Shown here: piece after piece, positions 1 to 28,044 of the stretch
How positions within the stretch are numbered: position 1 is the first letter of the stretch
How the letters are laid out: every line of letters starts with the position of its first letter
Source of the DNA: an uncultured Candidatus Saccharibacteria bacterium
GTDB taxonomy: Bacteria > Patescibacteriota > Minisyncoccia > Phycocordibacterales > UBA9973
Assembly: GCA_964591665.1 (NCBI GenBank)
Contig: CAZQCV010000001.1
Span: forward strand, 178-64,177
Reading direction: 5' to 3'
DNA: 64,000 nucleotides
Made by a program: the position numbers and the translations under genes
Notes under the pieces: model-generated
What the model saw: only the letters and a program-made list of their open reading frames with translations
The model's database searches: none
What the model was told of the DNA's origin: nothing

Positions 1-6
1 AATTGC

Positions 7-1572
7 ATGAAAGAACTCAAACCAAAATATTTTCTATACGCGCGAAAATCCACTGAAGATGACGATCATCAGATAATGTCTATTGAGGCACAACTTTTTG
101 AATTACGAGAATATGCGCGTAGAGAGAATCTTGAAATTCTTGATGAATTTCAAGAGTCGAAAAGTGCAAAGAAACCTGGTCGTGAACTTTTTAATCAAAT
201 GATGGCCCGTATTGAAAATATGGACGGCGTAGGTATTCTCGCGTGGCACCCTGATAGACTTGCTCGCAATAGTGTAGACGGCGGGCGCATCATTTACGCA
301 GTAGACACGACCAAAATAGTTTCTTTGCGATTTCCGACATTTTGGTTTGAGCCAACTCCGCAAGGGAAATTCATGTTGCAGGTGGCTTTCGGACAATCTA
401 AATATTATTCCGATAATCTTGTTGAAAATATTACACGCGGAATCCGCCAAAAAGTGAGACGAGGAGAATGGCTCGTGCGTGCGCCCTTTGGCTATATGAA
501 CAATCCGAAAACGAGAAATATTGAACCTCATCCGACCAAATCTCGTATTGTGGTAAAAGCGTTCGAAGAATATGCTAAAGGGACGCACACTCTCGACTCG
601 ATTTCTCACTTTTTGGCGGATCATGGCGTATCTACAAATGGTAAGCCACCTGCCAAAGCTTCCGTCGCTAAAATGCTCACGAGTCGCGCATATCTCGGAT
701 TTACACATCACAAAGGTGAATGGTATGACGGAAGCTTTGAGCCAATTATTTCTCCGACACTTTTTGAAGCAGTCCAAAAAATGCTTGCGAAAAAATCTCG
801 CCCAGTTAAACGTAAGGAGGCAAATCATTTCCCTTTTTCACAATTTGCAAGATGTGGTGAGTGCGGAAGTATGATTACGGCTCAATATGCCACTAATCGT
901 TTTGGTACTACCTATACATATTATCGTTGCACAAAAAAGAAAGGTGTTTGTCATCAGCCGTATCTATCTTCTTCCGCACTCATTTCGCAAGCAAAACATC
1001 TGCTTCAATCAGTGTCGCTTCCTCTTTCAGAAATTGAGAATATGGAAAAACAAATTGATATATGGGAAAAGGAAACAATTTCCGAAAGAGGAAGTGTTGC
1101 CCAAAATCTTAAAACCAAACTTTCCGAGACGAAGGAGAGATTAGACAAACTCGTTTCTTTATACTTAGACGGAGATATTGAACGAGAAATATATTTGCAC
1201 AAGAAAGATACTCTCCTTCGTCAGAAAGCAAAGTTTGAGGAAAGTTTTAAGGATTTTGAACAACAGAGAAAAAATTGGATCGAACCCTTGCGGAATTTCA
1301 TTTTGTCCTTGAAAGAAGCCATTTATTTGGAAAAAACCGAAAATTATTTAGAATGGAAAACTTTTTTCCAAAAAATCGGCTCTAACCCTGAAATCAAGGA
1401 CAAAACGCTTTCATGCAATTGGGGAGAGCTTTTTGAATTCACGGCTTCCGCCGTAGGCGGAAAGGGTTTGGAAAAATATGATAGCGCGATTTTGGCTCCC
1501 GCAAAATCGCTCCGCATTTCTAATTTTGCCGATGTATCTTTGGGTGGACTCAAGATTCTTTTCTTGGAATAG
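7..1572 (+). CDS. large serine recombinase (resolvase/invertase N-domain + recombinase domain + zinc-ribbon)
   Basis: N-terminal YARKSTEDDDHQIMSIEAQ matches the catalytic Ser motif of the resolvase family. The central recombinase domain and the Cys cluster CGECGS...YYRC (zinc ribbon) are typical of large serine recombinases. Confidence 0.85.
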   Translation: MKELKPKYFLYARKSTEDDDHQIMSIEAQLFELREYARRENLEILDEFQESKSAKKPGRELFNQMMARIENMDGVGILAWHPDRLARNSVDGGRIIYAVDTTKIVSLRFPTFWFEPTPQGKFMLQVAFGQSKYYSDNLVENITRGIRQKVRRGEWLVRAPFGYMNNPKTRNIEPHPTKSRIVVKAFEEYAKGTHTLDSISHFLADHGVSTNGKPPAKASVAKMLTSRAYLGFTHHKGEWYDGSFEPIISPTLFEAVQKMLAKKSRPVKRKEANHFPFSQFARCGECGSMITAQYATNRFGTTYTYYRCTKKKGVCHQPYLSSSALISQAKHLLQSVSLPLSEIENMEKQIDIWEKETISERGSVAQNLKTKLSETKERLDKLVSLYLDGDIEREIYLHKKDTLLRQKAKFEESFKDFEQQRKNWIEPLRNFILSLKEAIYLEKTENYLEWKTFFQKIGSNPEIKDKTLSCNWGELFEFTASAVGGKGLEKYDSAILAPAKSLRISNFADVSLGGLKILFLE

Positions 1573-1629
1573 ATTTGCGGTAGAACTTGAATATTTGGTG
1601 TATATTTTAAATAAAATATAATAAACTCA

Positions 1630-2334
1630 TTAAGTCCTAATATATTTAACAAACTCTTTGCCCAATTCCGAAATCCTAAAGTGACCATTTCCATTATAAC
1701 TTGTACCCGCATCCTCTTTAAGTAACCCAACACCAACTAAATAATTAAGCTTTTCAAAAGTGTATTCATCATCTTTAAATTTTTCAAATCCTTTCATTTC
1801 ATAAAGTATAAATTGACCATATTGTTTAACATTCAATCCACGTTTTAGTTCGTGAATGAGTTGTTCAGGACTATATACGCCTCCTTTCTGTAACCATTTT
1901 TCGACAGTTCCATCAATCCAGATTTTTACAATTTCTATATCTTCGACAGAGACTATGCTTAAAATATTTGATATTTTTTCTAGTTCAAAATTTTCTTTAT
2001 CTTGGCTATCTATAAAACCCAGCAATATTCCTAATATTGCCTCTCTTTTTTTGTCGTTTCTTTCATTTAAATATTGTTGAAATGAAAATATAAAAGCTTC
2101 TTGAACTTGTTCATTTTGAAGTGTTTTACCTGTGAATTTATCAACATTCGTTGCTATATGTTTAAAAAACTCATTTGAGCGTTTTTCTTTAACTTTGACA
2201 ATCCCACCAAATATGGACTTACAGACAACATACAGGGCTTGTGCCTCAAGTGGTAAAGAATTCCAAACAAGCAACTCAGTTGAGTTGATCGTAAGATCTT
2301 TACTTATATTGACTGCAATTTGATTAAGATCCAT
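1630..2334 (-). CDS. hypothetical protein (third gene of an AT-rich 3-gene operon)
   Basis: 234-aa ORF on the same strand as the two upstream ORFs, with a 10-nt overlap onto the 2324..2830 ORF. No motif recognised. Very AT-rich codon usage compared with the core genes. Confidence 0.5.
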   Translation of the reverse strand: MDLNQIAVNISKDLTINSTELLVWNSLPLEAQALYVVCKSIFGGIVKVKEKRSNEFFKHIATNVDKFTGKTLQNEQVQEAFIFSFQQYLNERNDKKREAILGILLGFIDSQDKENFELEKISNILSIVSVEDIEIVKIWIDGTVEKWLQKGGVYSPEQLIHELKRGLNVKQYGQFILYEMKGFEKFKDDEYTFEKLNYLVGVGLLKEDAGTSYNGNGHFRISELGKEFVKYIRT

Positions 2335-2830
2335 GATTATTTTCTTTATTCCATATTTCTAAAAAGTCATTAATATCAGAATGAATATTTAACTCTACTG
2401 ATTTAACTTCTGGTTTATCTGTATCTTTCTGTTCTTCATTATAAAACAAATACATTACTTTTTTAAAATTCTCTGAAACTTTATATAACATAAAATTATA
2501 TTTAATTTTTTTATTAAAAACTAAATCATTCCAGTCATGGGCAAAGACATTTCTGGGAATTTTTATATTTTTACTCTGTGACTTGTTTTTCTCAGTTATA
2601 TAGTAATAACTTGAAAGTTTTATATATAATAATTGAATATTTAATTCTAATTGTATCATATCCTGATTGGTCTGAAACAAATCCATTATAGTAAAATGAT
2701 TAATATATGAATTCGTTGAACTTAAAGAAGTATTTGTCAATTTAAAGAATAGTTCCCTTCCTTCAGTTATGAAAGAAACTAAATGTGCAATTTCTTGTTC
2801 CAGTCTTTTTTTATTTTTTAATCCAATCAT
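2324..2830 (-). CDS. hypothetical protein (middle gene of the 3-gene operon)
   Basis: 168-aa ORF lying 18 nt downstream of the 590-aa ORF and overlapping the next gene by 11 nt, which suggests translational coupling. No recognisable domain. Confidence 0.45.
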   Translation of the reverse strand: MIGLKNKKRLEQEIAHLVSFITEGRELFFKLTNTSLSSTNSYINHFTIMDLFQTNQDMIQLELNIQLLYIKLSSYYYITEKNKSQSKNIKIPRNVFAHDWNDLVFNKKIKYNFMLYKVSENFKKVMYLFYNEEQKDTDKPEVKSVELNIHSDINDFLEIWNKENNHGS

Positions 2831-2848
2831 TATGTTAGTTTGCTTATT

Positions 2849-4621
2849 TTAATCAATATGCTTACCAAAAACCGATTTATTTGAGAAGAAATTGGAAAAG
2901 TCTTTATTTTTTATAATCGGGTCTTTCTTTGTTTTATTAAAGACATATTCAGATAAACCATATGAGACACTATGGAACTTCGCCCTTTTAGTTATTGAAA
3001 TCCAATCTTTTGCAAATTCTTTTAATGCTGTACCTGAATCTTTTGGATCAAACAAACTCCATAATGTCTCCATATCATCCAAACACATAAATAAAGGAGG
3101 GTTATCTTGTAGATGTGTGAGGTTTTTTTGTACAATGTGTGTATTGTAGAAATCATTAAAATTATTAAATAATTCATCATCACCCAAGATATTTTCAGTT
3201 ACTAAAATTGGAATAATAGTTTTACCTTCAATTTGGTTATTTTCTATATACTGATTTAGCTTAAGCAACTTTCCTTTTTCTTTTTTCACGACTCTTGCAA
3301 GTGGATCATTTCTTCCTTCATTAAATAAAATAAGATATGCATCTTTAAGAAACTCCTCACAACTTGTATTATAAATTGAAGGTAAGCGATAATATTCAGT
3401 GGTAAATTCTATTATAAAAACAACATCATCTTGTATAATAACGGCATCTGCTCCAGAAGTTGCTCCAATCTGTATCTTGGATCCTTTGAAAATATTTTCA
3501 GTTAAAAATTGAAAATATTTCTCCATTAAACGTCCATACGATGATTTGAAACTTCGCAATTCACCTTTACTTTTTATACGCCAAAGCAATCCGCCACAAA
3601 CATTTTCAATAAGAAATTTTAAGTCAGTAATACAATATAAACCATCAGACATTTTAAAAATTGGATTATCAAAAAAAATTCTTATATTTTTATTAAATCC
3701 ATCTATTATATATTCTCTCTCTTCTTCTTCTAATATTGAAGTTTTAAGAGATTGAATATCTTTAGAGAGTATATCTATAATCCTCATAAAAGATGGATCT
3801 TTTTCAAAAAGCTCAGAACGAATATAGAATGAATCAGGATTTCTCCAATCAAATCCAAGTTTATCTTGACCATCAGGAAGTTGTATCTTGTCAGAAGTTG
3901 ATGGAATTTCTAAAAACCATATATATAAACCATGCAAAACTTTCATATATTCTGCAAGGGTAACACCTTCTTTCTCTTCAAAACTAGTAATACCTTTTTG
4001 TATTGTCTCTTTATCATGCTCCTCTAACTCAAGCAAGAGAGCTTCATAGCAATAAGCATAGCGTCTTATTCTACGTTTATAAATCATTGTCGAGACTTCG
4101 GGTAGATAGTAGTGTGGCCATTCTCTTATAAAATAATCTCTGAGAAACTTACCATTTTTATAATCTTGTTCTTTCTCCTCAATAGTAGTAATACTATTAG
4201 TTAGTAGCAATGCTTCAGAATATTTTTTCTGATTAGCAACGTGACTTTGCCCAATAAGCATCTGTGTACCAAATCTATCTTGTGAAATAACCTTAGTGAT
4301 AAGATTAAGTAAACTTTCTCTATGAAATAAGACTTTATGTGATAAATCTCTTTCGCCTTTTCGTAAAACATTGGATTCATACAGTAATCCAGCACCTTTT
4401 TCAATAGTTACTTCCGTTATAGAAGTCTGACATATCATATTAAGAAAACAACTAAATTGTATAAGTTGAGTAGGATCTATATTACTTAGAAGATATATTA
4501 TTTGTGTTTCAAAATCTGTCTCTGATTTTAAAATATCAATTGGAAATGTAATACCACCTTTTTCAAAAGTTTTAAATATTTCAGAATAATGAAGATAGGT
4601 AACTAATTTAGTTTCGCTCAT
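2849..4621 (-). CDS. hypothetical large protein (590 aa), possible degenerate PD-(D/E)xK-like segment
   Basis: Long uninterrupted ORF and first gene of the operon. The segment GADAVIIQDDVVFIIEFT weakly resembles a restriction-endonuclease-fold core (D...D/ExK) but has no Lys. Nothing else recognised. Confidence 0.5.
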   Translation of the reverse strand: MSETKLVTYLHYSEIFKTFEKGGITFPIDILKSETDFETQIIYLLSNIDPTQLIQFSCFLNMICQTSITEVTIEKGAGLLYESNVLRKGERDLSHKVLFHRESLLNLITKVISQDRFGTQMLIGQSHVANQKKYSEALLLTNSITTIEEKEQDYKNGKFLRDYFIREWPHYYLPEVSTMIYKRRIRRYAYCYEALLLELEEHDKETIQKGITSFEEKEGVTLAEYMKVLHGLYIWFLEIPSTSDKIQLPDGQDKLGFDWRNPDSFYIRSELFEKDPSFMRIIDILSKDIQSLKTSILEEEEREYIIDGFNKNIRIFFDNPIFKMSDGLYCITDLKFLIENVCGGLLWRIKSKGELRSFKSSYGRLMEKYFQFLTENIFKGSKIQIGATSGADAVIIQDDVVFIIEFTTEYYRLPSIYNTSCEEFLKDAYLILFNEGRNDPLARVVKKEKGKLLKLNQYIENNQIEGKTIIPILVTENILGDDELFNNFNDFYNTHIVQKNLTHLQDNPPLFMCLDDMETLWSLFDPKDSGTALKEFAKDWISITKRAKFHSVSYGLSEYVFNKTKKDPIIKNKDFSNFFSNKSVFGKHID

Positions 4622-4751
4622 ACGCTCTCATATAATACCATTTATACTTAAACTAATCCTAAACTAAGCAATAGATTTAATCTCAACTTTTTCAACAATT
4701 TTGAACATAGCAAGATCTCAAATCCTAGCTTTTCTTAGCACCCCTAAACTA

Positions 4752-5221
4752 TCAAACCTCTTTATTTTCAACATTTTTGACATATTTCTCTATGCTATGG
4801 TGCTTTATAACTGAACGCTCCCTTCCATCTCGTAAAACCTCTTGTACAAGCCTAGGAATGGTCTTAGGAAAGGTGGTAGATAAGGTAGAATATCCATATT
4901 TATAGCGTGTTGGTGTATACCAGCGTATAAGGAAGATAAGTGGTAATCCTGTCTTTCTAAGCGTATCTAAGCCTTGTACAAAGGTGGTAATAGGATCAAG
5001 GAGCATATAGGAATACTACAAGGTACGAGAATACAATCTATACCCTCTTCTACTGTCGGATTATTATAGCTTTCAGCATATGTTCGATCTGGATCATCTT
5101 TGTATTGTTCATAAAGGCTGAGATCTATGCTGATGTTGTTATATCCTTCTTTGTGAAGAAGTTGGATGGCATCGTGGAAAGAGTCTTCGTTATTTTCGAG
5201 TTCAATGTTGAGAGGTTTCAT
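4752..5221 (-). pseudogene. probable frameshifted gene remnant (two overlapping 84-aa ORFs in different frames on the same strand)
   Basis: ORFs 4967..5221 and 4752..5006 are collinear on the minus strand and overlap by 40 nt in different frames, consistent with one ~150-aa gene broken by a frameshift. Product unknown. Confidence 0.3.
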
Positions 5222-5255
5222 GAGCTCGTTCCTAAATACTAAAGCACTTATAAAA

Positions 5256-6140
5256 TTAGTAACATTGAGTCCTTAAATCACCAACCACCGTTTTACTAGT
5301 TGTACAATCTAGAGAATACAAAGAAGGTATTGAAGAAGGCGGTGTTGCAACAGGGGTGACTGTTGGTAACTTACTGGATGAACTATAATGACTTGATAAA
5401 CCAGCCATTATTCCATCTTTAGTAGTTTTCATTTTTCTTGAAGCAACAGACCATTCTTGACTTAATGCAGTTAATTTGGACAGTTGGTCTTTGTATGACT
5501 GTATTTTTTGTTTTTGAATCTCTAGTTGCTCAATACTATTAATTTTATGTAAGTCATTAGTAAAATATGCCTGTTCAGTTTTTAATCTAGATAGCTCAGC
5601 TTGAATAAACTTTCTTGCCTTTATTTCATCTTTGTAAAAATCTATTTGTTGCTGGTCTATTTTAGTAATATAATCCATTAAATAAATAGAATTTGGGTCT
5701 CCTTTTTTAAAACCCTCTGAGAGATTGATATTATCCTCAAGATCTAAGATTTGCCGTTCCGTAGAATCAATGAAAAGACCTTCCAACGATTGCTGAGTAT
5801 TATAACTTATGATTTGTTTCGTGAAGAGATTAATTACTTCGTTACGATAGTTTGCTACGTCATCTGATTCTTTTTTCTCTAAACCTGCATTTTGAATTGG
5901 CAAATTTGTTTTATTCTTGGATGGTTTTATCACAGCAGATTCTTTAACAGGAACCTCTGAAATAATTTCTTTTTGATTAATGATTTTAGTTGATTCTTGG
6001 TTACTTTGAACTTGTGTAGTTTTTCTAAAAAACATATTTGGAAACCATGTAAAAGGATTCCACCATGAAGCAAAAACAAACTGAGGAATAAAAACTAAGA
6101 GCGTGACAACTAATGAGAATAAATATTTTTTGTTTTTCAT
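5256..6140 (-). CDS. secreted or membrane-anchored coiled-coil protein with Ser/Thr/Pro-rich C-terminus
   Basis: N-terminal hydrophobic segment LFSLVVTLLVFIPQFVFA (signal or anchor), a long heptad-like Q/E/K-rich middle, and a C-terminal SSSSKLPTVTPVATPPSS tract. Confidence 0.5.
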   Translation of the reverse strand: MKNKKYLFSLVVTLLVFIPQFVFASWWNPFTWFPNMFFRKTTQVQSNQESTKIINQKEIISEVPVKESAVIKPSKNKTNLPIQNAGLEKKESDDVANYRNEVINLFTKQIISYNTQQSLEGLFIDSTERQILDLEDNINLSEGFKKGDPNSIYLMDYITKIDQQQIDFYKDEIKARKFIQAELSRLKTEQAYFTNDLHKINSIEQLEIQKQKIQSYKDQLSKLTALSQEWSVASRKMKTTKDGIMAGLSSHYSSSSKLPTVTPVATPPSSIPSLYSLDCTTSKTVVGDLRTQCY

Positions 6141-6230
6141 AATAAGTCACTGGTTTTAATTAGTAAAATGCAAAAAGCCCACCACATAAGGGATGATAGC
6201 TTTCGCTACCCATACACCTTTCGATGTACG

Positions 6231-6279
6231 ACCAGTGACGGAAGCCCCCTATGATGATGGGTTCTTTACACGTCACTGG
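6231..6279. other. perfect 9-bp inverted repeat (CCAGTGACG...CGTCACTGG) forming a stem-loop in the relatively GC-rich divergent intergenic region
   Basis: Read directly: ccagtgacg at 6231-6239 and cgtcactgg at 6271-6279 with a 31-nt loop. It sits in a local GC-rich patch within an otherwise AT-rich spacer. Confidence 0.3.
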
Positions 6280-6400
6280 ATTTTTCACCATGCCTCTATT
6301 ACTAAAGGTTTAGGCTACTACTTATTTGGTTGTAAGGATATTATATAAAAATTACCTTTAAAAAGAAAGCTTTTTAAGCTTAAAATAGACACTTTCTAAC

Positions 6401-6429
6401 TTGACAAAAAGGCAATTATAGTATATAAT
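6401..6429 (+). promoter_or_regulatory. consensus sigma70-type promoter (TTGACA-17nt-TATAAT)
   Basis: TTGACA at 6401-6406, a 17-nt spacer, and TATAAT at 6424-6429, about 40 nt upstream of the helicase start codon at 6468. Confidence 0.5.
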
Positions 6430-6467
6430 ATAGCAAACCAACAATTTACAAAAGAAAATAAAATTAT

Positions 6468-8456
6468 ATGTATACAGAAACTCTTAATTCACAGATTAAG
6501 CCAGTCCCCTTTCAACTTTATGATTACCAAAAACCAATCGTAAAGAAAGCCTTAGATACTATTCTTAAAGGAGAAAACGGATTGATAGTACAGCCAACTG
6601 GAACCGGTAAGACGGTGGAAGCGGCCTTTATAGCTCGTGCATGTATCCTTCTTCATAAAAAAAGAGGTTTATATGTTTACGATGCTAATGATGGGCTCGA
6701 ACAAGCCCGAAAAAAGTTCGAAGAGATATTCAATGGTAATGATATTTCCTGTGCTAATTTCTTTGGCTATGGAAAAGAAGACCATGTGCGTACTGCTAAT
6801 ATCGTATTTGCTTCGTATCAATCACTAAATCACTATAAGGAAAAAGCGTACAAAACGTTTGATCCAACTCATTTTGATTTTATCATTGTCAACGAAGCAC
6901 ACCACGGTGAAGCAGTTACCTACAAAGAAGTCATTCAACACTTTACCTGTCCTAAAATTGGTATGACTGCAGTACCTGAGCGACAAGACGGAAAAGACAT
7001 ACTTAACATATTCGATAAGATTATCCATGAGATACTTTTTGAAGAAGCTTTAGTAAAAGGTTGGATTGCACAAATAGAATATCATGTTCTATCGAGCGGT
7101 CTTTCAACCCAAAACCTAAAAGCAATATGTGAAGATGTCTTAGAAAAAGGCAAACGAATCACTATTAAACAGCTTAATGAATCAATTTTTGTTGAGAAGT
7201 TAGATAATGAAATCCTTGCCGAGATTCACAAGTATGCGTTTCCTGAAAATCGAGCACCACTTCAAACACTTATTTTTTGTGAAAACATCAGACATGCAGA
7301 ATACATGTTAACCATGTTAAAAGATTACAATAGAAGTGTTGATGTCGTGCATTCGAAAAAAGGTAAAACACATAACCGTAATGCAATCAGAGATTTTAAG
7401 GCAAAAAAGTTTCAGTTCTTGATTTCTGTTGACCAGTTAAATGAAGATATTGATATCCCACAAGTTGAGCTCGGAGTTTTTCTCAGAGCAACAAACTCAA
7501 AAAATATCTGGTATCAACAACTTGGAAGACTACTTCGTAGAACGAAACTTAAACAAAAAGCTATTGTCTTAGACTTTGTTGCAAATATTCAACGCTTAGT
7601 AGCTGTACAGGAATTATCCAAAAGAGTGGAAGAAATGGCAAAACTTCAGAAACCTCTAGTAGAACTATTACCTCTTGAAAAAGATGTAATAAATGTCTCT
7701 GGTGAAGGATTCAGTTTTGACTTCTCAGATTATACAGTTGATATTCTAAAAACCGTTGCTGCGATAAATAAGGGTAGATACTCTACTTATATTGAGGCAA
7801 AGGAAGCTACAGAGAAATTGAAAATCAAAAGTGGTATTGAATATTATGCTAGATATAAAGAAGATCCAGGGCTTCCTAGTGCTCCTAGTTTATTCTATAA
7901 AGATAAAGGTTGGCTAGGATGGGATGATTTTCTAGGAACATTTTATTCTACCTATGAAGAAGTTGTCGAAGCTGTAAGAAAACTGCAGATTAAAGATCAA
8001 ACTGATTATAGGTATCGTTACAAGGAAGATCCTAAACTTCATTCTGCTCCATATCTCTTTTATAAAGACAAGGGTTGGATAGGTTGGCCTGAGTTGTGCA
8101 ATGCACTTAGTGAAAGGAGAAAATTCTACACTTATGCTGAAGCAGTTGAGGTAGTAGCTAATCTTAAAATTAAGGATAGGATTGATTATAACGAGAAGTA
8201 TAAGCAAGATCGTAAACTTCCTCGTAATCCTCACTTTATTTATAAAGATAACGGTTGGATAAATTGGTTGCTATATCTTAGTAAATATTATGAGACCTGT
8301 GAAGAAGCCGCACAAGCAGCTAGAAAACTCAGGATTAAAAGCTCTGATGATTACAGATTACGATATAAAGAGGATGAAAAACTTCCGTGCAATCCAGATA
8401 GCTTCTACAAAAACGAAGGTTGGATAAATTGGCCTAAATTTTTAGGTAGAAAATAA
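6468..8456 (+). CDS. SF2 (DEAD/DEAH-like) helicase with four C-terminal tandem repeats
   Basis: Walker A QPTGTGKT, motif II VNEAHH, motif III TAVPE, motif VI QQLGRLLRR. The C-terminal ~220 aa is four repeats of ~54 aa with the signature Y..YKED.KLP..P..(F/Y)YKD.GWI.W. Confidence 0.8.
   Translation: MYTETLNSQIKPVPFQLYDYQKPIVKKALDTILKGENGLIVQPTGTGKTVEAAFIARACILLHKKRGLYVYDANDGLEQARKKFEEIFNGNDISCANFFGYGKEDHVRTANIVFASYQSLNHYKEKAYKTFDPTHFDFIIVNEAHHGEAVTYKEVIQHFTCPKIGMTAVPERQDGKDILNIFDKIIHEILFEEALVKGWIAQIEYHVLSSGLSTQNLKAICEDVLEKGKRITIKQLNESIFVEKLDNEILAEIHKYAFPENRAPLQTLIFCENIRHAEYMLTMLKDYNRSVDVVHSKKGKTHNRNAIRDFKAKKFQFLISVDQLNEDIDIPQVELGVFLRATNSKNIWYQQLGRLLRRTKLKQKAIVLDFVANIQRLVAVQELSKRVEEMAKLQKPLVELLPLEKDVINVSGEGFSFDFSDYTVDILKTVAAINKGRYSTYIEAKEATEKLKIKSGIEYYARYKEDPGLPSAPSLFYKDKGWLGWDDFLGTFYSTYEEVVEAVRKLQIKDQTDYRYRYKEDPKLHSAPYLFYKDKGWIGWPELCNALSERRKFYTYAEAVEVVANLKIKDRIDYNEKYKQDRKLPRNPHFIYKDNGWINWLLYLSKYYETCEEAAQAARKLRIKSSDDYRLRYKEDEKLPCNPDSFYKNEGWINWPKFLGRK
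7778..8447 (+). repeat. four tandem ~160-nt coding repeats inside the helicase gene
   Basis: Four peptide units beginning YSTYIEAKEA..., YSTYEEVVEA..., FYTYAEAVEV... and YYETCEEAAQ... . Each unit ends in YKDxGWIxW. Confidence 0.6.
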
Positions 8457-8486
8457 TTACAACACTTTTACATTAAATAACTAAAC

Positions 8487-8520
8487 CTGTCTATCTTAAA
8501 TGATAGGCAGTTTTTTATTT
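8487..8520 (+). terminator. rho-independent terminator after the helicase gene
   Basis: Stem ctgtctatc/gataggcag (one G-U pair), loop ttaaat, followed by TTTTTTATTT. Confidence 0.5.
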
Positions 8521-8582
8521 GTATTTTTACTTTATTTATTGTTGCACTGGAAAGCTTCCAAATAAAAAGGTAAAATATAGTT

Positions 8583-9341
8583 ATGAATGAGAAGCTTGTC
8601 GACGGACTCAAAAGACGGTTTGAGACAATAGAAAAGGCCCAATTTCGTGGCAATCAACATATTGCGTATGTAGAGTATTTTACTTTTATATTACAAAATC
8701 CCTTAACAACAACTACTGCTAAAGGCCTTCTACTTCAAGAGGGACATTTCTTAAATAAAAACCTTTTAAGCTATCTTTTTGCAACTTCAGTACTAACGGA
8801 TAATTACTCACTTATTTTAAAGGAGATTGACTATATTCAATCTTATATACAAGAGACGCTTGATGAAAAGAAAAAAGGGAAAGGTATAAAATTAACAGAG
8901 AAAGATGTACGTTCAATTGCAGAAAGAAATAACCAAAAGACTAATGAGCTTGAAAAAGAAACGGACCTGAATTTGTTAAATGTATTTCATCATAAACTCA
9001 TTGATAGATTGCATGGTATGGTAATTAAAATACCTTTAACTTTTTCTAAACTTAGAGGTATAGCTTTAGCGTCAGATCCAAGTAAATTTTATAAACCTGC
9101 AAATGGTTCTGACCGGCTTGAATATTTAAGTAAAATCATACAAAAGAAAGGTATTTCGATATTATCAAGGGATCTTTCTCAAAATGTAGGCAAAAAAAGA
9201 CACATTAACCAGATGATTATAGTAAGTACAGCAATCAAGAATATCAATGAAACCATAAAGAAGAAACTAGGCTTAAAACATAACGTCATTCTAAATAATG
9301 ATGGATATATGCTCAACACAGAAGACTATGATTTTTTGTAA
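8583..9341 (+). CDS. hypothetical protein (252 aa)
   Basis: ORF on the same strand between the helicase and the HTH protein. No recognisable motifs. Confidence 0.45.
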   Translation: MNEKLVDGLKRRFETIEKAQFRGNQHIAYVEYFTFILQNPLTTTTAKGLLLQEGHFLNKNLLSYLFATSVLTDNYSLILKEIDYIQSYIQETLDEKKKGKGIKLTEKDVRSIAERNNQKTNELEKETDLNLLNVFHHKLIDRLHGMVIKIPLTFSKLRGIALASDPSKFYKPANGSDRLEYLSKIIQKKGISILSRDLSQNVGKKRHINQMIIVSTAIKNINETIKKKLGLKHNVILNNDGYMLNTEDYDFL

Positions 9342-9461
9342 GTTAATTTGTAGTTAACGTTAATATCCTCTAAAAAAGCAATTAAAATATCGCTTTTTTT
9401 CTTTTACAAGTTAATAAAAGGCTAATATTTGCTAGAAAAAAAATATGCTTGAATAGAGTAT

Positions 9462-10013
9462 ATGGAGAAATTCAGAGACACAAAAGAAAGAACAGGAAAG
9501 TTTTTCATGAACGACCTAGTGCTGGATAAATATGCACGTTATCTTGGTATTTATGCAACAGGAGTATACATGTCACTTTGCAGACACTTTAACTATGCTA
9601 CAGGAACTTGTTTTCCATCGAAAGAAACGATGGCTCAGAAACTTGGTATCTCAGAAAGAAAAGTTTATGACGCAATAAAGCAATTAAAAGAGCTAAATTT
9701 AATCCAGGTTACTTCCCAAGGAAAGAAAGAGGACGGTTCATATAAAAATAATGTGTATAAATTATTGGATAAATCACATTGGTTGGATCCTTTGTTGTTC
9801 TATGCCGACGGCACAGGAAAACATAAACCGTCAGCACGTGGAGGCAAAACCCATAGGCACCGTATGCCTAATAAGGATACACATAGTAAGGATACAAATA
9901 ATAAGGGAGATATTAACATAGAAAGAACAGGAGAGCCTATAAATCCAATGAAGCAATTTAGAGAGAAGAAAGATGCTCTGGTCAAATCTATAACTATTGA
10001 TTACAATGGATAA
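9462..10013 (+). CDS. helix-turn-helix protein resembling phage/plasmid replication-initiator or replisome-organiser N-terminal domains
   Basis: The pattern ...FPSKETMAQKLGISERKVYDAIKQLKELNLI... is typical of winged-HTH Rep/DnaD-like proteins (HTH_36-like). The C-terminus is basic. Confidence 0.5.
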   Translation: MEKFRDTKERTGKFFMNDLVLDKYARYLGIYATGVYMSLCRHFNYATGTCFPSKETMAQKLGISERKVYDAIKQLKELNLIQVTSQGKKEDGSYKNNVYKLLDKSHWLDPLLFYADGTGKHKPSARGGKTHRHRMPNKDTHSKDTNNKGDINIERTGEPINPMKQFREKKDALVKSITIDYNG

Positions 10014-10218
10014 GCTACATGCCAAATTAATAAACGATGCTGTCTTTGTACCTGAAGAGGGGCAACGTGATTTGGTATGTAGCAATACAAAGTCGTTTCG
10101 TTGTCCCTCTTTGGGTATTAATTCTAATCAAGTCTCGGAAGAAATTGCACTCGATTACTTTGCAGGTATTTTAGTAAAAGCATTCCTTGATAAAAAAGAA
10201 AATGATCACAAACAATAA
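9997..10218 (+). CDS. small hypothetical protein (73 aa), possibly a recombination directionality or accessory factor
   Basis: Short ORF bridging the HTH gene and the recombinase, overlapping both by a few codons. No motif, so it could be spurious. Confidence 0.2.
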   Translation: MITMDKLHAKLINDAVFVPEEGQRDLVCSNTKSFRCPSLGINSNQVSEEIALDYFAGILVKAFLDKKENDHKQ

Positions 10219-11743
10219 TAAGAAAGCAGTACTTTACTGCCGAGTGTCTACTAAAGAGCAGGTTGATGAAGGTAATAGTCTTAGTACACAGGAAAAGACA
10301 TGTAGAGAATACTGCGCTAAAAATGACTATGAGATAGCTAAAGTCTTCTTAGAACAAGGTGAAAGTGCTAAGACTGCTGATCGCACCGAACTTCAAAAGC
10401 TGTTGACTTACTGTGCTGATAAAAAGAATGGCATAAAAGCTATTATCATATACAAAGTAGATCGTCTTTCCCGTAATACCGACGATTACAGTCAAATTAG
10501 GCTTTTCCTGAAGCGTTATGGTGTAGAAATCAAATCTACCTCTGAACACTTCGAAAACAGTCCTGTGGGGCGTTTTATGGAGAATACGATGGCCAACATA
10601 GCACAGTTCGATAACGATGTACGTTCTGAACGCTGTGCTGCAGGAATGATGGAGGCTGTACGAGAAGGTCGTTATGTATGGATGGCTCCTATAGGCTATG
10701 ACAACGTAAAAGTGAACGGTAAATCTACCATAGCTATGAATGAATTTATGGGTTCTTTGATGCGTAAAACTTTTGAACTCATAGCTTCTAATATTCATTC
10801 AACAGAAGAAGTAAGACACCTTATGACCGCAGAAGGTCTATTAAATAAAAAAGGGCAGCCACTTTCAAAAAGTTATTTCTATAGTGTACTTACCAATAAG
10901 TTATATACTGGACGAATCATTAAGTTTGGAGAAGAGCATATGGGTTTATTTGAACCGATCATCTCAGATGAACTATACGACCAAGTACAACGTGTATTAA
11001 AGGGTAAAGGACGGAAACATTCTCAATATCTTACTGACAACCCTGATTTCCCTCTTAAAAGATTAATTACAGATGAGAATGGTAAATTACTTACAGGTAG
11101 TTGGTCTAGAGGTGGTAGACTTAAAAAATATCCTTACTACCGTTTTGGAGATAACAAATCAAGTCACAACAGAGATAAGTTTGAAAAAGCATACATGCAA
11201 TATGTTGATCAGTTTGCTTTTGATCAGAAAAGATTAAGTCGACTGAAAGAATTAGTAAGAGAAAACCTAACAAGAGCAACAATGACTCAACGCAAAGAAG
11301 AAGAAAAACTTAAGAAACAAATAATTGAACTCAAAGAAAGACAATCAAATATCATTAAGAAAAACTTTGATGGTATCATTTCGGACACCGTTCTACAACA
11401 ACAATCAGCAATGATAGAAAAACAGTTACTAGATGCAAATACTTTGCTCATGAGTATGCCTAATACTGAAACAGATTATGATGAAGCATTATTATTCGTA
11501 GAAGAATATCTAAAAAACCCAAGTAAAATATGGAAAGAAGCAAATCTTGATGTAAAAATTAAACTACAATGGTTCCAATTCCCCTCAGGTATCGTGTATA
11601 AAAATAATACTTTTGGAACCACCGAAATGTGCTTATTTTTCAAAGCAAAAGACGCCTTTTCGGCGTCTAAGTCTGCTATGGTGGACCCTACAGGACTCGA
11701 ACCTGCCACCCCATCATTGCAAATGATGTGCTCTACCAGATGA
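10187..11743 (+). CDS. large serine recombinase (integrase), 3' end overlapping tRNA-Ala
   Basis: N-terminal AVLYCRVSTKEQVDEGNSLSTQE is a resolvase catalytic-Ser motif, followed by a recombinase domain and a coiled-coil C-terminal region. The last ~22 codons run antisense through the tRNA-Ala gene. Confidence 0.85.
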   Translation: MIKKKMITNNNKKAVLYCRVSTKEQVDEGNSLSTQEKTCREYCAKNDYEIAKVFLEQGESAKTADRTELQKLLTYCADKKNGIKAIIIYKVDRLSRNTDDYSQIRLFLKRYGVEIKSTSEHFENSPVGRFMENTMANIAQFDNDVRSERCAAGMMEAVREGRYVWMAPIGYDNVKVNGKSTIAMNEFMGSLMRKTFELIASNIHSTEEVRHLMTAEGLLNKKGQPLSKSYFYSVLTNKLYTGRIIKFGEEHMGLFEPIISDELYDQVQRVLKGKGRKHSQYLTDNPDFPLKRLITDENGKLLTGSWSRGGRLKKYPYYRFGDNKSSHNRDKFEKAYMQYVDQFAFDQKRLSRLKELVRENLTRATMTQRKEEEKLKKQIIELKERQSNIIKKNFDGIISDTVLQQQSAMIEKQLLDANTLLMSMPNTETDYDEALLFVEEYLKNPSKIWKEANLDVKIKLQWFQFPSGIVYKNNTFGTTEMCLFFKAKDAFSASKSAMVDPTGLEPATPSLQMMCSTR

Positions 11744-11754
11744 GCTAAGGGCCC
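11679..11754 (-). tRNA. tRNA-Ala (anticodon UGC), CCA encoded
   Basis: The reverse complement folds as a cloverleaf GGGCCCT/TA/GCTC-ATCTGGTA-GAGC/A/CATCA-TTTGCAA-TGATG/GGGTG/GCAGG-TTCGAGT-CCTGT/AGGGTCC/A/CCA. It has the G3:U70 Ala identity pair and a TGC anticodon. Confidence 0.85.
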
Positions 11755-11780
11755 GTACAAGGAATATACTATACTATTTT

Positions 11781-12767
11781 TTATTTCAGTGCAAGACCAA
11801 TCAAGTGGTGTATAAACTCTGGGAGTGTTACGCCTACTGGAGGTAAGGACTTTGGCACCAAAGACTCTTTGGTAAGCCCTGGAAGGTTGTTTACCTCAAG
11901 GAAATAGATCTTACCGTTTTTCCCTACGATGAAATCAGAGCGTGAATAGTGACGCAATCCAAGACCTTTGTGGATACGTTTTGCATAGTCCATAAGCACT
12001 TGTTTTTCTGCTTGACTGAAATTACCAGGAGAAATCTCTTCTGCTTCACCACTGTACTTTGCATCAAAATCAAAAAACGTAGACTTCGTGCGAATTTCAA
12101 TAGGAAGAAACGCGTAGACATCTTGTCCACGAAGGTTATCTGTAACCGCAACAGTTGCTTCTCGTCCTCCAACATATTCTTCTACGAGCACAACACTCTC
12201 ACCGAGGAGTTTCATAAGCACGTCTTGGAGATCGGTTGCAGTCTTAACAATAGAGACACCGATCGATGAACCACTAGTGACTGGTTTAACCACCCATGGA
12301 GGAGAAAGTTTCATCATGGTCTCACGAGTCATAGCGGTGACATAATTAGCAAATGGAACTGCAGTGCTTTCTGTATATTGATCAAGGTGAATATCTTTTG
12401 ATACAAGGATATCAAGTTCACGAGCATACTCTTTTGTTGTCCACTTATCGAGTGCACGTTTAGAAGCTTCAGGATTTGAACCAGTGTATGGAATACCTAT
12501 TGCTTCAAGTATTTGCTGTATCTGACCATCTTCACCAAACTCTCCATGAAGTGCAATGAACGCAACATCTATTTTGTCCACCAGTTGTTCAGGTTGTATC
12601 TCACGTCCTGCATGATGCCAAGTGCCATCTTTGGTGATGAGAACATCTACGGGTGTATACGTATCTTTAAAATGATCATGGAGTACAGACAAAACACTCT
12701 TACCTGTCTCAAGTGAAACAGGATATTCACTACTGATACCTCCACGTATAACACCAACTCGAATCAT
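11781..12767 (-). CDS. ddl: D-alanine--D-alanine ligase
   Basis: MIRVGVIRGGISSEYPVSLETGKSVL... shows the ATP-grasp Ddl architecture, 328 aa. Confidence 0.9.
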   Translation of the reverse strand: MIRVGVIRGGISSEYPVSLETGKSVLSVLHDHFKDTYTPVDVLITKDGTWHHAGREIQPEQLVDKIDVAFIALHGEFGEDGQIQQILEAIGIPYTGSNPEASKRALDKWTTKEYARELDILVSKDIHLDQYTESTAVPFANYVTAMTRETMMKLSPPWVVKPVTSGSSIGVSIVKTATDLQDVLMKLLGESVVLVEEYVGGREATVAVTDNLRGQDVYAFLPIEIRTKSTFFDFDAKYSGEAEEISPGNFSQAEKQVLMDYAKRIHKGLGLRHYSRSDFIVGKNGKIYFLEVNNLPGLTKESLVPKSLPPVGVTLPEFIHHLIGLALK

Positions 12768-12792
12768 ATACGGTTAGTATATCACGGAGGAA

Positions 12793-27960: not shown

Positions 27961-28033
27961 GCCGCTTTAGCTCAGTTGGTAGAGCAACGCTTTTGTAAAG
28001 CGAAGGTCCTCGGTTCAAGTCCGAGAAGCGGCT
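27961..28033 (+). tRNA. tRNA-Thr (anticodon UGU)
   Basis: Cloverleaf GCCGCTT/TA/GCTC-AGTTGGTA-GAGC/A/ACGCT-TTTGTAA-AGCGA/AGGTC/CTCGG-TTCAAGT-CCGAG/AAGCGGC/T. CCA is not fully encoded. Confidence 0.8.
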
Positions 28034-28044
28034 CCCGAATAAAA

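What the first reader, a model, noticed from the sequence alone, without database searches (positions are those of the whole stretch)
10187..11754. Serine recombinase ORF terminates antisense within tRNA-Ala(UGC)
The last ~65 nt of the recombinase reading frame are the reverse complement of tRNA-Ala from its 3' end through the T and anticodon arms. The tRNA is intact (G3:U70, anticodon UGC, encoded CCA). Overlap of an integrase gene's 3' end with a tRNA gene is expected when attP is carried inside the integrase gene's 3' end and insertion reconstitutes the tRNA. It pins the probable right-hand junction of the element to within this tRNA.
Basis: seen in the sequence. Interest (0 to 1): 0.5.

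Follow-up and report, generated by a model that had tools for sequence, protein, structure and literature searches.

The report
Serine integrase split by tRNA insertion
A 10-kb plasmid-like element of an ultra-small (CPR) bacterium has inserted at the 3' end of a tRNA-Ala gene using a serine integrase whose own attachment site lies inside its coding sequence, so insertion cuts off the enzyme's last 25 amino acids and fuses the gene to the antisense strand of the host tRNA; the arrangement is widespread in these bacteria, and I found no published description of it.

Summary
The overlap is real. ORF 10202-11743 (+) is a large serine recombinase (LSR) whose last 65 nt are antisense to an intact tRNA-Ala(UGC) at 11679-11754 (-).

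The overlapped DNA is host tRNA, not an element-borne copy. The crossover lies in a 7-bp core, GGTGGAC, present at 11680-11686 (attR, tRNA positions 75-69) and at 1543-1549 (attL).

In frame after the attL core sits the orphaned native tail of the integrase, SRFFSWNRFAVELEYLVYILNKI* (to 1621). A profile of intact tails from relatives finds it as the only significant hit in the window (E=1.2e-7).

Evidence from relatives:
- 75 of the 120 closest homologues end in antisense-tRNA peptides.
- Two circular 10-12 kb contigs carry the intact gene and no tRNA.
- 15 other loci show the same attL/attR anatomy.

So attP is inside the integrase ORF, and integration swaps its C-terminus. The integrase codons just before attP also encode, antisense, a terminator-like hairpin at the spacing of the native tRNA terminator.

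A second, unrelated LSR (7-1572) belongs to an older element in the same tRNA, making a tandem array.

I rate this a new variant of a known kind.

The parts
7..1572 (+). LSR1: a second large serine recombinase (521 aa, with zinc-ribbon domain). It is the integrase of an older, about 3.85-kb element lying mostly left of the window. Its 3' end runs across attL of element 2 in another frame.
   Evidence: It is 26% identical to LSR2. PF00239, PF07508 and PF13408 are recorded for the identical protein P0121. Rebuilding the site as it was before element 2 gives the ending ...VSLGGPYRTRTCHPIIANDVLYQMS*. Homologue P0129 (83% identical) ends in the same antisense tRNA-Ala stretch, GGPYRTRTCHPIIANDVLYQMS. 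Its own attL and orphan tail (VIISFARTFFQKKLDEE*) lie at L096 7691-7760, outside the window.
1543..1549 (+). attL core GGTGGAC, the left junction of element 2.
   Evidence: This is the only other plus-strand copy of the 7-mer in the first 13 kb. It is immediately followed, in frame, by the orphan integrase tail. The same GTGGAC-plus-tail arrangement occurs in 15 other loci.
1544..1621 (+). Orphaned 3' end of the LSR2 gene: VD + SRFFSWNRFAVELEYLVYILNKI + stop. This is the native C-terminal helix, displaced by integration.
   Evidence: An HMM built from 11 intact tails of homologues finds this as the only significant hit in the six-frame translation of the whole window (E 1.2e-7; next best 1.2).
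1550..11686 (.). Element 2: a 10,137-bp integrative, plasmid-like element (core-to-core distance) with low G+C (0.26-0.375, against about 0.40 for the host).
   Evidence: Composition profile, attL/attR mapping and gene content.
1630..4621 (-). Three cargo ORFs of unknown function (234, 168 and 590 aa).
   Evidence: No hit in Pfam or PADLOC; in PHROGs only one marginal match (phrog_23235, E 5.9e-4, unknown function) for the 234-aa ORF.
6195..6316 (-). LOOT RNA (Rfam RF03000), a structured RNA of unknown function carried by the element.
   Evidence: 88.2 bits against a gathering score of 46.4. It is also present inside four related integrated elements.
6468..8456 (+). SF2 helicase (ResIII + Helicase_C) with four C-terminal INT_rpt repeats.
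   Evidence: Pfam; PHROG 16, DNA helicase, E 1.5e-62.
9462..10013 (+). Protein resembling a DnaD/HTH_36 replication initiator.
   Evidence: PF13730 E 2.6e-14. PHROGs annotated as replication initiation or DnaD-like loader, E about 1e-14.
9997..10218 (+). Conserved 73-aa ORF overlapping the integrase start. It is a candidate accessory or directionality factor.
   Evidence: 46% identical (E 8e-15) to the ORF at the same position in circular contig L093. ORFs of 75-90 aa occupy the same position in L090, L092, L094 and L010.
10202..11743 (+). LSR2 hybrid ORF as it exists in the integrated state. Residues 1-494 are native; the last 19 residues (PTGLEPATPSLQMMCSTR...) are encoded by the antisense strand of the host tRNA.
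   Evidence: An AF2 model of a 61%-identical homologue matches full-length SPbeta, Bxb1 and phiC31 integrases.
11650..11668 (-). Terminator-like hairpin AGACGCC-GAAAA-GGCGTCT followed by UUUGCUUUG, 10 nt downstream of the tRNA 3' end. It is encoded antisense within integrase codons K-D-A-F-S-A-S.
   Evidence: Terminator scan. A comparable hairpin plus T-run occurs in 21 of 42 loci by strict criteria, against 0.3 expected. The mean folding z-score is -4.1, and stem sequences differ between loci.
11680..11686 (+). attR core GGTGGAC, the reverse complement of tRNA positions 75-69 (C75, C74, A73, C72, C71, U70, G69). This is the right junction of element 2.
   Evidence: Intersecting the Ala-type core with the core of the tRNA-Lys locus L013 (TGTCC) narrows the crossover to GT(G/C)(G/C), tRNA positions 74-71.
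11679..11754 (-). Host tRNA-Ala(UGC), intact. This is the attB target.
   Evidence: The circular relatives carry no tRNA.
11781..12767 (-). Host D-Ala-D-Ala ligase gene, marking the host flank.
   Evidence: Pfam families recorded for the identical gene in L098.

Best explanation
Window 1550-11686 is a 10.1-kb integrative, plasmid-like element of a Paceibacteria/Patescibacteria (CPR) bacterium. Its large serine integrase (LSR2) inserted it into the 3' end of the host tRNA-Ala(UGC) gene.

Shown:
- attP lies inside the integrase ORF, about 25 codons before its stop. It is centred on the Val-Asp codons GTG GAC, which are identical to the reverse complement of the tRNA's C74-A73-C72-C71-U70-G69.
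- Recombination within this 6-7-bp core leaves the whole tRNA body host-derived and intact.
- It carries the last 25 integrase codons to the far end of the element (attL, 1544-1621).
- It fuses the rest of the ORF to the antisense strand of the tRNA, adding 19 fortuitous residues up to a stop in the D arm.

Inferred:
- The element gives the tRNA a new 3' trailer and a terminator-like hairpin. The hairpin is encoded antisense inside the integrase codons, at the same spacing as the native tRNA terminator.
- The crossover dinucleotide lies within GTGG.
- The T-arm motif CGAAC serves as the zinc-ribbon-domain site of attB. It sits 5 bp closer to the centre than GGAAC does in attP, as in the Listeria integrase model.
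- The integrated-state enzyme, lacking a conserved amphipathic C-terminal helix, probably differs in activity from the circular-state enzyme.

LSR1 (7-1572) is the integrase of an older element that used the same site, so the locus is a tandem array.
For: 1. Core and orphan tail in the window. The profile of free-form tails hits only 1544-1609 (E 1.2e-7).
2. Homologues diverge after the conserved ...S-x-V-D, most into one of two classes. One ends in antisense-tRNA peptides (75 of 120). The other (about 35 by eye) ends in a conserved (F/L)WNxFAxExxYLxxIL tail. About ten fit neither class cleanly.
3. 42 of 80 genomic loci have the ORF ending inside a minus-strand tRNA. Most are Ala(UGC); Ala(CGC/GGC), Leu, Lys, Arg, Tyr, Val and Glu also occur.
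4. 15 further loci have an orphan tail 3.8-10.3 kb upstream, directly after GTGGAC.
5. Logan contigs L093 (10,378-bp circle) and L094 (about 12.2 kb) have 30-bp terminal overlaps. In L094 an ORF closes across the junction. Both carry the intact integrase and no tRNA.
6. LSR identity: Pfam. The AF2 model (pLDDT 81) matches full-length SPbeta, Bxb1 and phiC31 integrases (Foldseek E 3e-18 to 8e-14).
7. The tail is a confident helix (residues 495-513) after a disordered linker that corresponds to the attP-encoded residues.
8. Terminator-like hairpin. Native attB-left flanks carry their own hairpin at the same spacing.
9. The GGAAC (attP, +22) and CGAAC (attB, +17) motifs show a 5-bp shift, as described for LI integrase (PMC3783163).
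10. LSR1 repeats the pattern. Its family has antisense-tRNA tails, its attL and orphan tail lie in the source contig, and there are tandem arrays L101 and L102.
Against: - No empty site or circular form of this exact element was found. All contigs carrying the integrated protein have the same context. The exact reconstructed free-form protein is absent from the collection. An exact host-flank search of JGI metagenomes gave nothing.
- Relatives with intact tails also sit on long chromosomal contigs, mainly Bacteroidota (L010, L025, L028 and others), with no tRNA within 10 kb. An intact tail is therefore not proof of an excised state. Tandem arrays can restore a tail in frame, but this was not shown for those loci.
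- The fixed-column covariation test of the hairpin was inconclusive and RNAalifold predicted no consensus. About a third of loci lack a convincing hairpin.
- No dyad symmetry could be demonstrated in the att sites.
- Recombination activity, the crossover dinucleotide and termination are all untested.
Confidence: 0.85

Rival explanations
1. Read-through artefact. The real integrase ends upstream of the tRNA, and the overlap is a meaningless extension of a mechanically called ORF next to an unrelated tRNA.
For: 21 open codons antisense to a tRNA are not improbable by chance (about 0.36). The tRNA-encoded residues bear no resemblance to the conserved native tail.
Against: There is no stop before the tRNA. 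Homologues are conserved right up to the V-D codons that coincide with the tRNA 3' end. The junction is at the same nucleotide in dozens of loci with several tRNA species. The missing tail is found in frame at the other end of the island.
Confidence: 0.03
2. The tRNA-Ala belongs to the element (a cargo tRNA), and the integrase/tRNA overlap is the element's native gene layout. The true junction would be further right.
For: Mobile elements and phages often carry tRNAs. CCA is encoded here, unlike at several related loci.
Against: Circular relatives carry no tRNA. The integrase in circles continues into the conserved tail instead. The attL/attR core places the tRNA outside the element. G+C rises on the host side of the tRNA, in the next 1-kb composition window. 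The tRNA is directly followed by ddl, uvrC and other host genes in every contig.
Confidence: 0.03
3. Classical tRNA-island model. attP contains a long copy of the tRNA 3' part, insertion reconstitutes the tRNA from element DNA, and a displaced tRNA fragment marks the other end.
For: This is the standard anatomy for tyrosine-integrase islands (PMC4383910 abstract). The integrase gene is adjacent to the tRNA and convergent with it.
Against: There is no second copy of the tRNA 3' 25-mer with up to 3 mismatches. Identity between attL and attR is only 7 bp. The attP of circular relatives diverges from the tRNA immediately after GTGGAC. The enzyme is a serine recombinase, not a tyrosine one.
Confidence: 0.04
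4. The element is a defective relic. The integrase was inactivated by integration ('suicidal', as in SSV-type archaeal integrases), and the array is frozen. The C-terminal swap has no regulatory meaning.
For: The hybrid enzyme lacks a conserved, confidently predicted helix. All 20 contigs show the same integrated context. A 50-nt relic of an older LSR2-type gene lies further left in the source contig.
Against: The hybrid ORF is otherwise intact and 100% conserved across samples. Circular relatives exist. This is compatible with the main explanation and differs only in what happens after integration.
Confidence: 0.3

Closest known systems
Large serine integrases of phages and integrative elements (phiC31, Bxb1, A118/LI, TP901-1, SPbeta SprA)
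   Same: It has the catalytic resolvase domain, the recombinase domain, and a ribbon domain with a long coiled coil. The att sites are short and share only a few bases at the crossover. A distal half-site motif is shifted 5 bp between attP and attB.
   Different: attP lies inside the integrase's own ORF, so integration changes the protein's C-terminus. The target is the 3' end of a tRNA gene; a 2020 survey stated that serine-integrase use of t(m)RNA genes had not been reported (PMC7192596). The ribbon region of LSR2 has no cysteines and no PF13408 hit.
SSV-type 'suicidal' tyrosine integrases of archaeal viruses and plasmids
   Same: [quoted passage not shown]
   Different: Those are tyrosine recombinases, and the review describes them as exclusive to archaea. 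Here only the last 25 codons of a bacterial serine recombinase are displaced and replaced by a tRNA-antisense peptide.
Integration-dependent immunity of mycobacteriophages (BPs, Brujita, cluster P)
   Same: According to the abstract, the BPs system is integration-dependent and involves the attachment site (PMC4557955 abstract). From my own recollection, attP lies inside the 3' part of a gene, so integration yields a protein with a different C-terminus, making protein isoform depend on DNA state.
   Different: From my recollection, there the split gene is the repressor and the integrase is a tyrosine recombinase. Here the split gene is the serine integrase itself, and a regulatory consequence is only hypothesised.
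Tyrosine-integrase genomic islands in tRNA/tmRNA genes (Islander-type; P4-like)
   Same: The site is the 3' end of a tRNA gene, the integrase gene is adjacent to the tRNA, the target gene's function is preserved, and elements accrete in tandem at one tRNA.
   Different: There is no displaced tRNA fragment (7-bp identity only), and the recombinase family differs. What the element restores is the trailer and terminator rather than part of the tRNA body.
phiRSM small serine recombinase
   Same: It is a serine-family recombinase acting as a site-specific integrase (PMC7192596). From my own recollection, its site is a tRNA-Ser gene.
   Different: It is a small serine recombinase without the large C-terminal domain, from a filamentous phage of Ralstonia. 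I know of no report that its attP lies inside its own ORF.

Membership tests
Large serine recombinase / serine integrase | N-terminal resolvase-type catalytic domain with the serine nucleophile | tested here: met
   PF00239 E 1.3e-33, residues 9-158. The motif YCRVST has S16 invariant in 26 homologues. Matches to solved catalytic domains 3guv and 3bvp.
Large serine recombinase / serine integrase | Recombinase domain following helix E | tested here: met
   PF07508 E 1.1e-9, above the curated cutoff.
Large serine recombinase / serine integrase | Zinc-ribbon domain with an inserted coiled coil | tested here: inconclusive
   The AF2 model of homologue P0073 has beta-hairpins at 294-320 followed by long helices 339-386 and 392-416. 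It aligns over 500-540 columns with SPbeta, Bxb1 and phiC31 integrases. However, LSR2 has no PF13408 hit and no cysteines in residues 283-335, so the ribbon is probably zinc-less. LSR1 does have PF13408.
Large serine recombinase / serine integrase | Short att sites sharing only a small core around a 2-bp crossover, with no long homology | tested here: met
   attL/attR identity is 6-7 bp in 15 tRNA-Ala locus pairs and 5 bp in the Lys pair. The common region is GT(G/C)(G/C).
Large serine recombinase / serine integrase | Distal (ZD) half-site motif about 5 bp closer to the centre in attB than in attP | tested here: met
   The right half-sites carry GGAAC at +22..+26 in attP and CGAAC at +17..+21 in attB. 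The criterion is taken from PMC3783163. Left half-sites showed no clear counterpart.
Large serine recombinase / serine integrase | Catalyses attP x attB recombination; excision needs a directionality factor | not testable with these tools
   Only indirect evidence: circular and integrated forms of relatives, and a conserved 73-aa ORF as candidate factor.
Tyrosine-integrase tRNA genomic island (Islander type) | Tyrosine recombinase (Phage_integrase domain) | tested here: not met
   No such domain in the element's ORFs.
Tyrosine-integrase tRNA genomic island (Islander type) | Displaced fragment of the tRNA gene as a direct repeat at the distal end | tested here: not met
   No second copy of the 25-mer with up to 3 mismatches. 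Only a 7-bp core is shared.
SSV-type suicidal integrase | attP located within the integrase ORF, so that integration splits the gene | tested here: met
SSV-type suicidal integrase | Tyrosine recombinase of archaeal mobile elements | tested here: not met
   It is a serine recombinase. Hosts are Patescibacteria, according to record titles and source names.
Temperate phage (prophage) | Capsid, terminase, tail or lysis genes | tested here: not met
   PHROGs and Pfam find only a helicase and a replication initiator. IMG/VR holds only relatives of the integrase at 33% identity or less.

The most novel reading that the evidence does not exclude
The position of attP inside the integrase gene may act as a built-in state sensor.
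- Circular DNA would encode the full-length enzyme, with a conserved amphipathic C-terminal helix, competent for attP x attB integration.
- Integrated DNA would encode a hybrid enzyme without that helix, with different properties: for example relieved or altered coiled-coil autoinhibition allowing attL x attR excision, or complete silencing.
- Recombination directionality would then be set by which isoform the DNA topology allows to be made, with or without the conserved 73-aa partner.
- The same codons double as the terminator of the target tRNA, and convergent tRNA transcription may further repress the integrated integrase.
Probability: 0.2. Interest if true: 0.85.

Novelty: new variant of a known kind. 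Interest (0 to 1): 0.68.

Why it matters
- Serine integrases are major genome-engineering tools. They are textbook examples of enzymes that target protein-coding or intergenic sites, while tRNA genes are the province of tyrosine integrases. This finding gives a large, natural family, plus a second unrelated one, that targets the conserved 3' end of tRNA genes. attP, attB, attL and attR can be read directly from sequence.
- It shows that the 'attachment site inside the integrase gene' design, thought to be an archaeal peculiarity of tyrosine recombinases, arose independently in bacterial serine recombinases.
- It offers a directly testable pair of natural isoforms (518 aa and 513 aa) for studying how the C-terminus of a serine integrase influences directionality.
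- It identifies a major class of small integrative replicons, and the genomic home of the orphan LOOT RNA, in the poorly understood CPR bacteria.
- It gives annotators a rule: recombinase ORFs ending in ...VDPTGLEPATP...-type peptides are integration fusions.

Tried and rejected
- Partial tRNA copy: I searched for one (25-mer, up to 3 mismatches) and ran generic repeat finding over 1-13000. No tRNA copy turned up, and the repeat finder did not report the 7-bp core. The core was found only after comparing homologue C-termini.
- Hairpin covariation: the fixed-column test gave a weak signal, confounded by register shifts. RNAalifold predicted no consensus. I replaced it with per-sequence hairpin statistics.
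- Dyad-symmetry scan of attP and attB to pin down the central dinucleotide: uninformative.
- Exact look-up of the reconstructed free-form LSR2 and of the pre-insertion LSR1 protein: neither is in the collection.
- IMG/VR scan for circular viral relatives: only relatives at 33% identity or less.
- Exact search of JGI metagenomes for the host flank, to find an empty site: 0 hits.
- All contigs carrying the integrated protein: identical context, no polymorphism.
- Rfam search for a group II intron next to the RVT_1 gene upstream in the source contig: nothing.
- PADLOC on cargo ORFs: only generic helicase similarities.
- P0124 and P0131, first taken as free forms of LSR1-type integrases, turned out to sit in tandem arrays where the next element supplies the tail. 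An 'intact tail' therefore does not by itself mean 'excised'.
Full report
**Observation**

The mechanical ORF 10187..11743 (+) encodes a 518-aa protein. The probable start is ATG 10202. The 513-aa product from that start is in the public protein collection on about 20 contigs, and the TTG-started version is not. Pfam finds a Resolvase catalytic domain (E 1.3e-33) and a Recombinase domain (E 1.1e-9), so this is a large serine recombinase, called LSR2 here.

ARAGORN and Rfam both call an intact tRNA-Ala(UGC) at 11679-11754 on the minus strand. It has G3:U70 and an encoded CCA (sequence). The ORF and the tRNA overlap by 65 nt (11679-11743). The overlap covers tRNA positions 76 back to 12, and the stop codon comes from the D stem.

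**What the homologues show**

The 120 closest homologues are 55-70% identical, and the few that carry names are named Nomurabacteria, Paceibacteria or Parcubacteria (CPR). They are conserved up to a ...S-x-V-D motif, after which most fall into one of two classes.
- 75 of 120 continue with peptides such as VDPTGLEPATPSLQMMCSTR, VDPSGLEPLTSSVQMRRSTR or VDPRRFELLTFALQKHCSTS. These are antisense translations of tRNA T arms.
- About 35 of the remaining 45, by eye, continue with a different, mutually conserved tail, (F/L)WNxFAxExxYLxxIL.
- About ten fit neither class cleanly: five end in short tails such as ...VVFV, and a few are cut off or end in other frames.

The Val-Asp codons GTG GAC are the reverse complement of the tRNA's C74-A73-C72-C71-U70-G69.

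**The other end of the element**

The heptamer GGTGGAC of the tRNA end (11680-11686) occurs once more on the plus strand in the first 13 kb, at 1543-1549. In frame with its GTG GAC it is followed by SRFFSWNRFAVELEYLVYILNKI*. This is the second kind of tail.

A profile built from 11 intact tails of homologues, none from this window, was searched against all 2,362 six-frame segments of the window. It finds this segment with E = 1.2e-7, and the next best hit has E = 1.2.

Joining 10202-11686 to 1550-1621 reconstructs a 518-aa integrase with a native tail. G+C falls from 0.42 to 0.26-0.35 between the two cores and returns to about 0.40 beyond the tRNA. The element is therefore 1550-11686 (10,137 bp), with attL at 1543-1549 and attR at 11680-11686.

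**Replication in other genomes**

A scan of 185,579 species' genomes gave 80 loci. In 42 of them the integrase ORF ends inside a minus-strand tRNA. Most are Ala(UGC), but Ala(CGC/GGC), Leu, Lys, Arg, Tyr, Val and Glu also occur.

In 15 of these loci an orphan tail ORF lies 3.8-10.3 kb upstream, directly after GTGGAC. In all 15 tRNA-Ala locus pairs (14 of these loci plus the window) attL and attR share at least GTGGAC. At the tRNA-Lys locus L013 they share TGTCC. The intersection, GT(G/C)(G/C), places the crossover at tRNA positions 74-71 (inference).

The entire tRNA body is thus host DNA. The element contributes at most the CCA end, and CCA is not consistently encoded at other loci.

**Free forms**

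Two Logan contigs have 30-bp identical termini, the k-1 overlap expected of a circular assembly. They are L093 (10,408 bp; integrase 61% identical) and L094 (12,223 bp; 60% identical). In L094 the two end-truncated ORFs join into one long ORF across the junction.

Both carry the integrase with its intact tail and no tRNA gene. The attP of L093 reads ...aagtctgctatGGTGGACttcgacttc....

An intact tail is not proof of excision, however. Bacteroidota relatives carry intact genes on long contigs with no tRNA within 10 kb. In arrays of same-family elements (L101, L102) the upstream integrase acquires the downstream element's tail in frame.

**The enzyme**

An AlphaFold2 model of the L093 integrase has mean pLDDT 81. 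It aligns over 500-540 columns with the SPbeta, Bxb1 and phiC31 integrase structures (Foldseek E 3e-18 to 8e-14).

The tail is a confident helix (residues 495-513, pLDDT about 88). It follows a disordered linker (485-491) that corresponds to the attP-encoded residues.

LSR2 has no PF13408 hit and no cysteines in the ribbon region, so it is probably zinc-less.

In the right half-sites, attP carries GGAAC at +22..+26 and attB (the T arm) carries CGAAC at +17..+21. This 5-bp inward shift matches the one described for the zinc-ribbon-domain motif of the Listeria integrase (PMC3783163). The left half-sites gave no clear counterpart, and dyad symmetry was not demonstrable.

**A terminator inside the coding sequence**

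Ten nucleotides after the tRNA 3' end, on the tRNA strand, lies AGACGCC-GAAAA-GGCGTCT followed by UUUGCUUUG (11668-11650). It is encoded antisense by the integrase codons K-D-A-F-S-A-S.
- Across 42 loci, 21 meet a strict hairpin-plus-T-run rule, against 0.3 expected from shuffles.
- The mean folding z-score is -4.1.
- Stems differ in sequence between loci (GACGCC/GGCGTC, GAGGCA/TGCCTC, GACTGG/CCAGTC, ATCCACG/CGTGGAT).
- A fixed-column covariation test was inconclusive because of register shifts.
- The hairpin is present in CPR-type free forms and mostly absent from distant Bacteroidota relatives.
- Native attB-left flanks (L005, L008, L023, L029, L035, L042, L043, L064) carry their own terminator hairpin at the same distance.

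My inference is that the element replaces the tRNA's trailer and terminator, rather than part of the tRNA.

**Cargo**

The element carries:
- three unknown ORFs;
- a 294-aa ORF;
- a LOOT RNA (RF03000, 88 bits);
- an SF2 helicase with INT_rpt repeats;
- a protein resembling a DnaD/HTH_36 replication initiator;
- a conserved 73-aa ORF overlapping the integrase start, 46% identical to its counterpart in L093.

There are no virion genes, and IMG/VR lacks close relatives of the integrase. The element looks like an integrative plasmid.

**The second integrase**

LSR1 (7-1572) is 26% identical to LSR2 and has a zinc ribbon. It runs across attL in another frame.

Rebuilding the site as it was before element 2 gives an LSR1 ending ...GGPYRTRTCHPIIANDVLYQMS*, which is antisense tRNA-Ala in a different frame. 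Homologue P0129 has the same GGPYRTRTCHPIIANDVLYQMS ending.

In the source contig (L096; ENA ERZ22307367, 87,940 bp) LSR1's own attL core (TGGTGG) lies about 2.3 kb upstream of the LSR1 start, so this element is about 3.85 kb long. It is followed by the LSR1-family tail VIISFARTFFQKKLDEE*. It is preceded by a 50-nt relic of yet another LSR2-type 3' end, including its hairpin.

The locus is therefore a tandem array built by successive insertions into the same tRNA end. The same LSR1-type/LSR2-type order recurs in L009.

**Comparison with what is known**

- Mageeney et al. 2020 found 14 of 297 serine-integrase islands at t(m)RNA genes. They stated that such use had not been reported and needed proof (PMC7192596).
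- A 2021 review describes integrases carrying the att site within their ORF as exclusive to archaea, and these are tyrosine recombinases (PMC8371274).
- Integration-dependent immunity in mycobacteriophages, as I recall it, places attP inside the repressor gene; only the abstract was seen here (PMC4557955).
- Four literature searches found no description of the present arrangement.

I classify it as a new variant of a known kind: a bona fide LSR integrative element with three unusual, linked features. These are a tRNA 3'-end target, an attP inside the integrase ORF that causes a C-terminal swap, and an antisense terminator within coding sequence.

**Limits**

No empty site or circle of this exact element was found. 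Activity, the crossover position, termination and any regulatory role of the swap are all inferred.

Noticed in passing
window 6195-6316 (-); also L005 6771-6889, L008 7513-7634, L009 8373-8492, L022 7090-7211: LOOT RNA (Rfam RF03000, function unknown) lies inside this element and inside four related tRNA-Ala-integrated elements. It is always on the strand opposite the integrase. It is absent from circular relatives L093 and L094. It looks like a component of this mobile-element family.
   Followed up: partly
window 7-1572 and L096 7640-7760 (source contig, upstream of the window): There is a second, unrelated large serine recombinase with the same 'attP inside the ORF, tRNA 3' end' design. 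Its attL and orphan tail lie about 2.3 kb upstream of its start (the element is about 3.85 kb). They are preceded by a 50-nt relic of a third, LSR2-type integrase 3' end. This is a three-generation tandem array at one tRNA.
   Followed up: yes
L101 and L102 (whole contigs): These are tandem arrays of two LSR1-type elements at tRNA-Ala. The upstream integrase gets the downstream element's tail in frame, restoring an apparently intact gene.
   Followed up: partly
L010, L025, L028, L037, L040, L048, L052, L076 and other Bacteroidota loci: Relatives 46-67% identical sit on long Bacteroidota contigs, with intact long tails and no tRNA within 10 kb. How these are integrated is unknown. L010 and L090 share TrwB-like, RadC and ArdC neighbours.
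   Followed up: no
window 6468-8456 (+): An SF2 helicase carries four C-terminal 'Integrase repeat unit' (PF14882) repeats, an unusual fusion.
   Followed up: no
L096 4173-7294: Upstream in the source contig are a LexA-like S24 peptidase plus a Y-family polymerase (IMS) pair, and a reverse-transcriptase gene (RVT_1). No Rfam intron or retron RNA was detected across the RT gene and downstream (L096 5500-10000; the LexA/IMS part was not scanned).
   Followed up: partly
LSR1-family homologues P0145, P0152, P0167, P0194, P0207, P0226: A third recurrent C-terminal ending...VSIVPNSHLFPKQ..SHA.RAWWLE, is shared by divergent LSR1-type proteins. It may be the antisense of another conserved target gene or RNA.
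   Followed up: no
window 27961-28035 (+): A second tRNA gene, tRNA-Thr(UGU), has no recombinase nearby.
   Followed up: no
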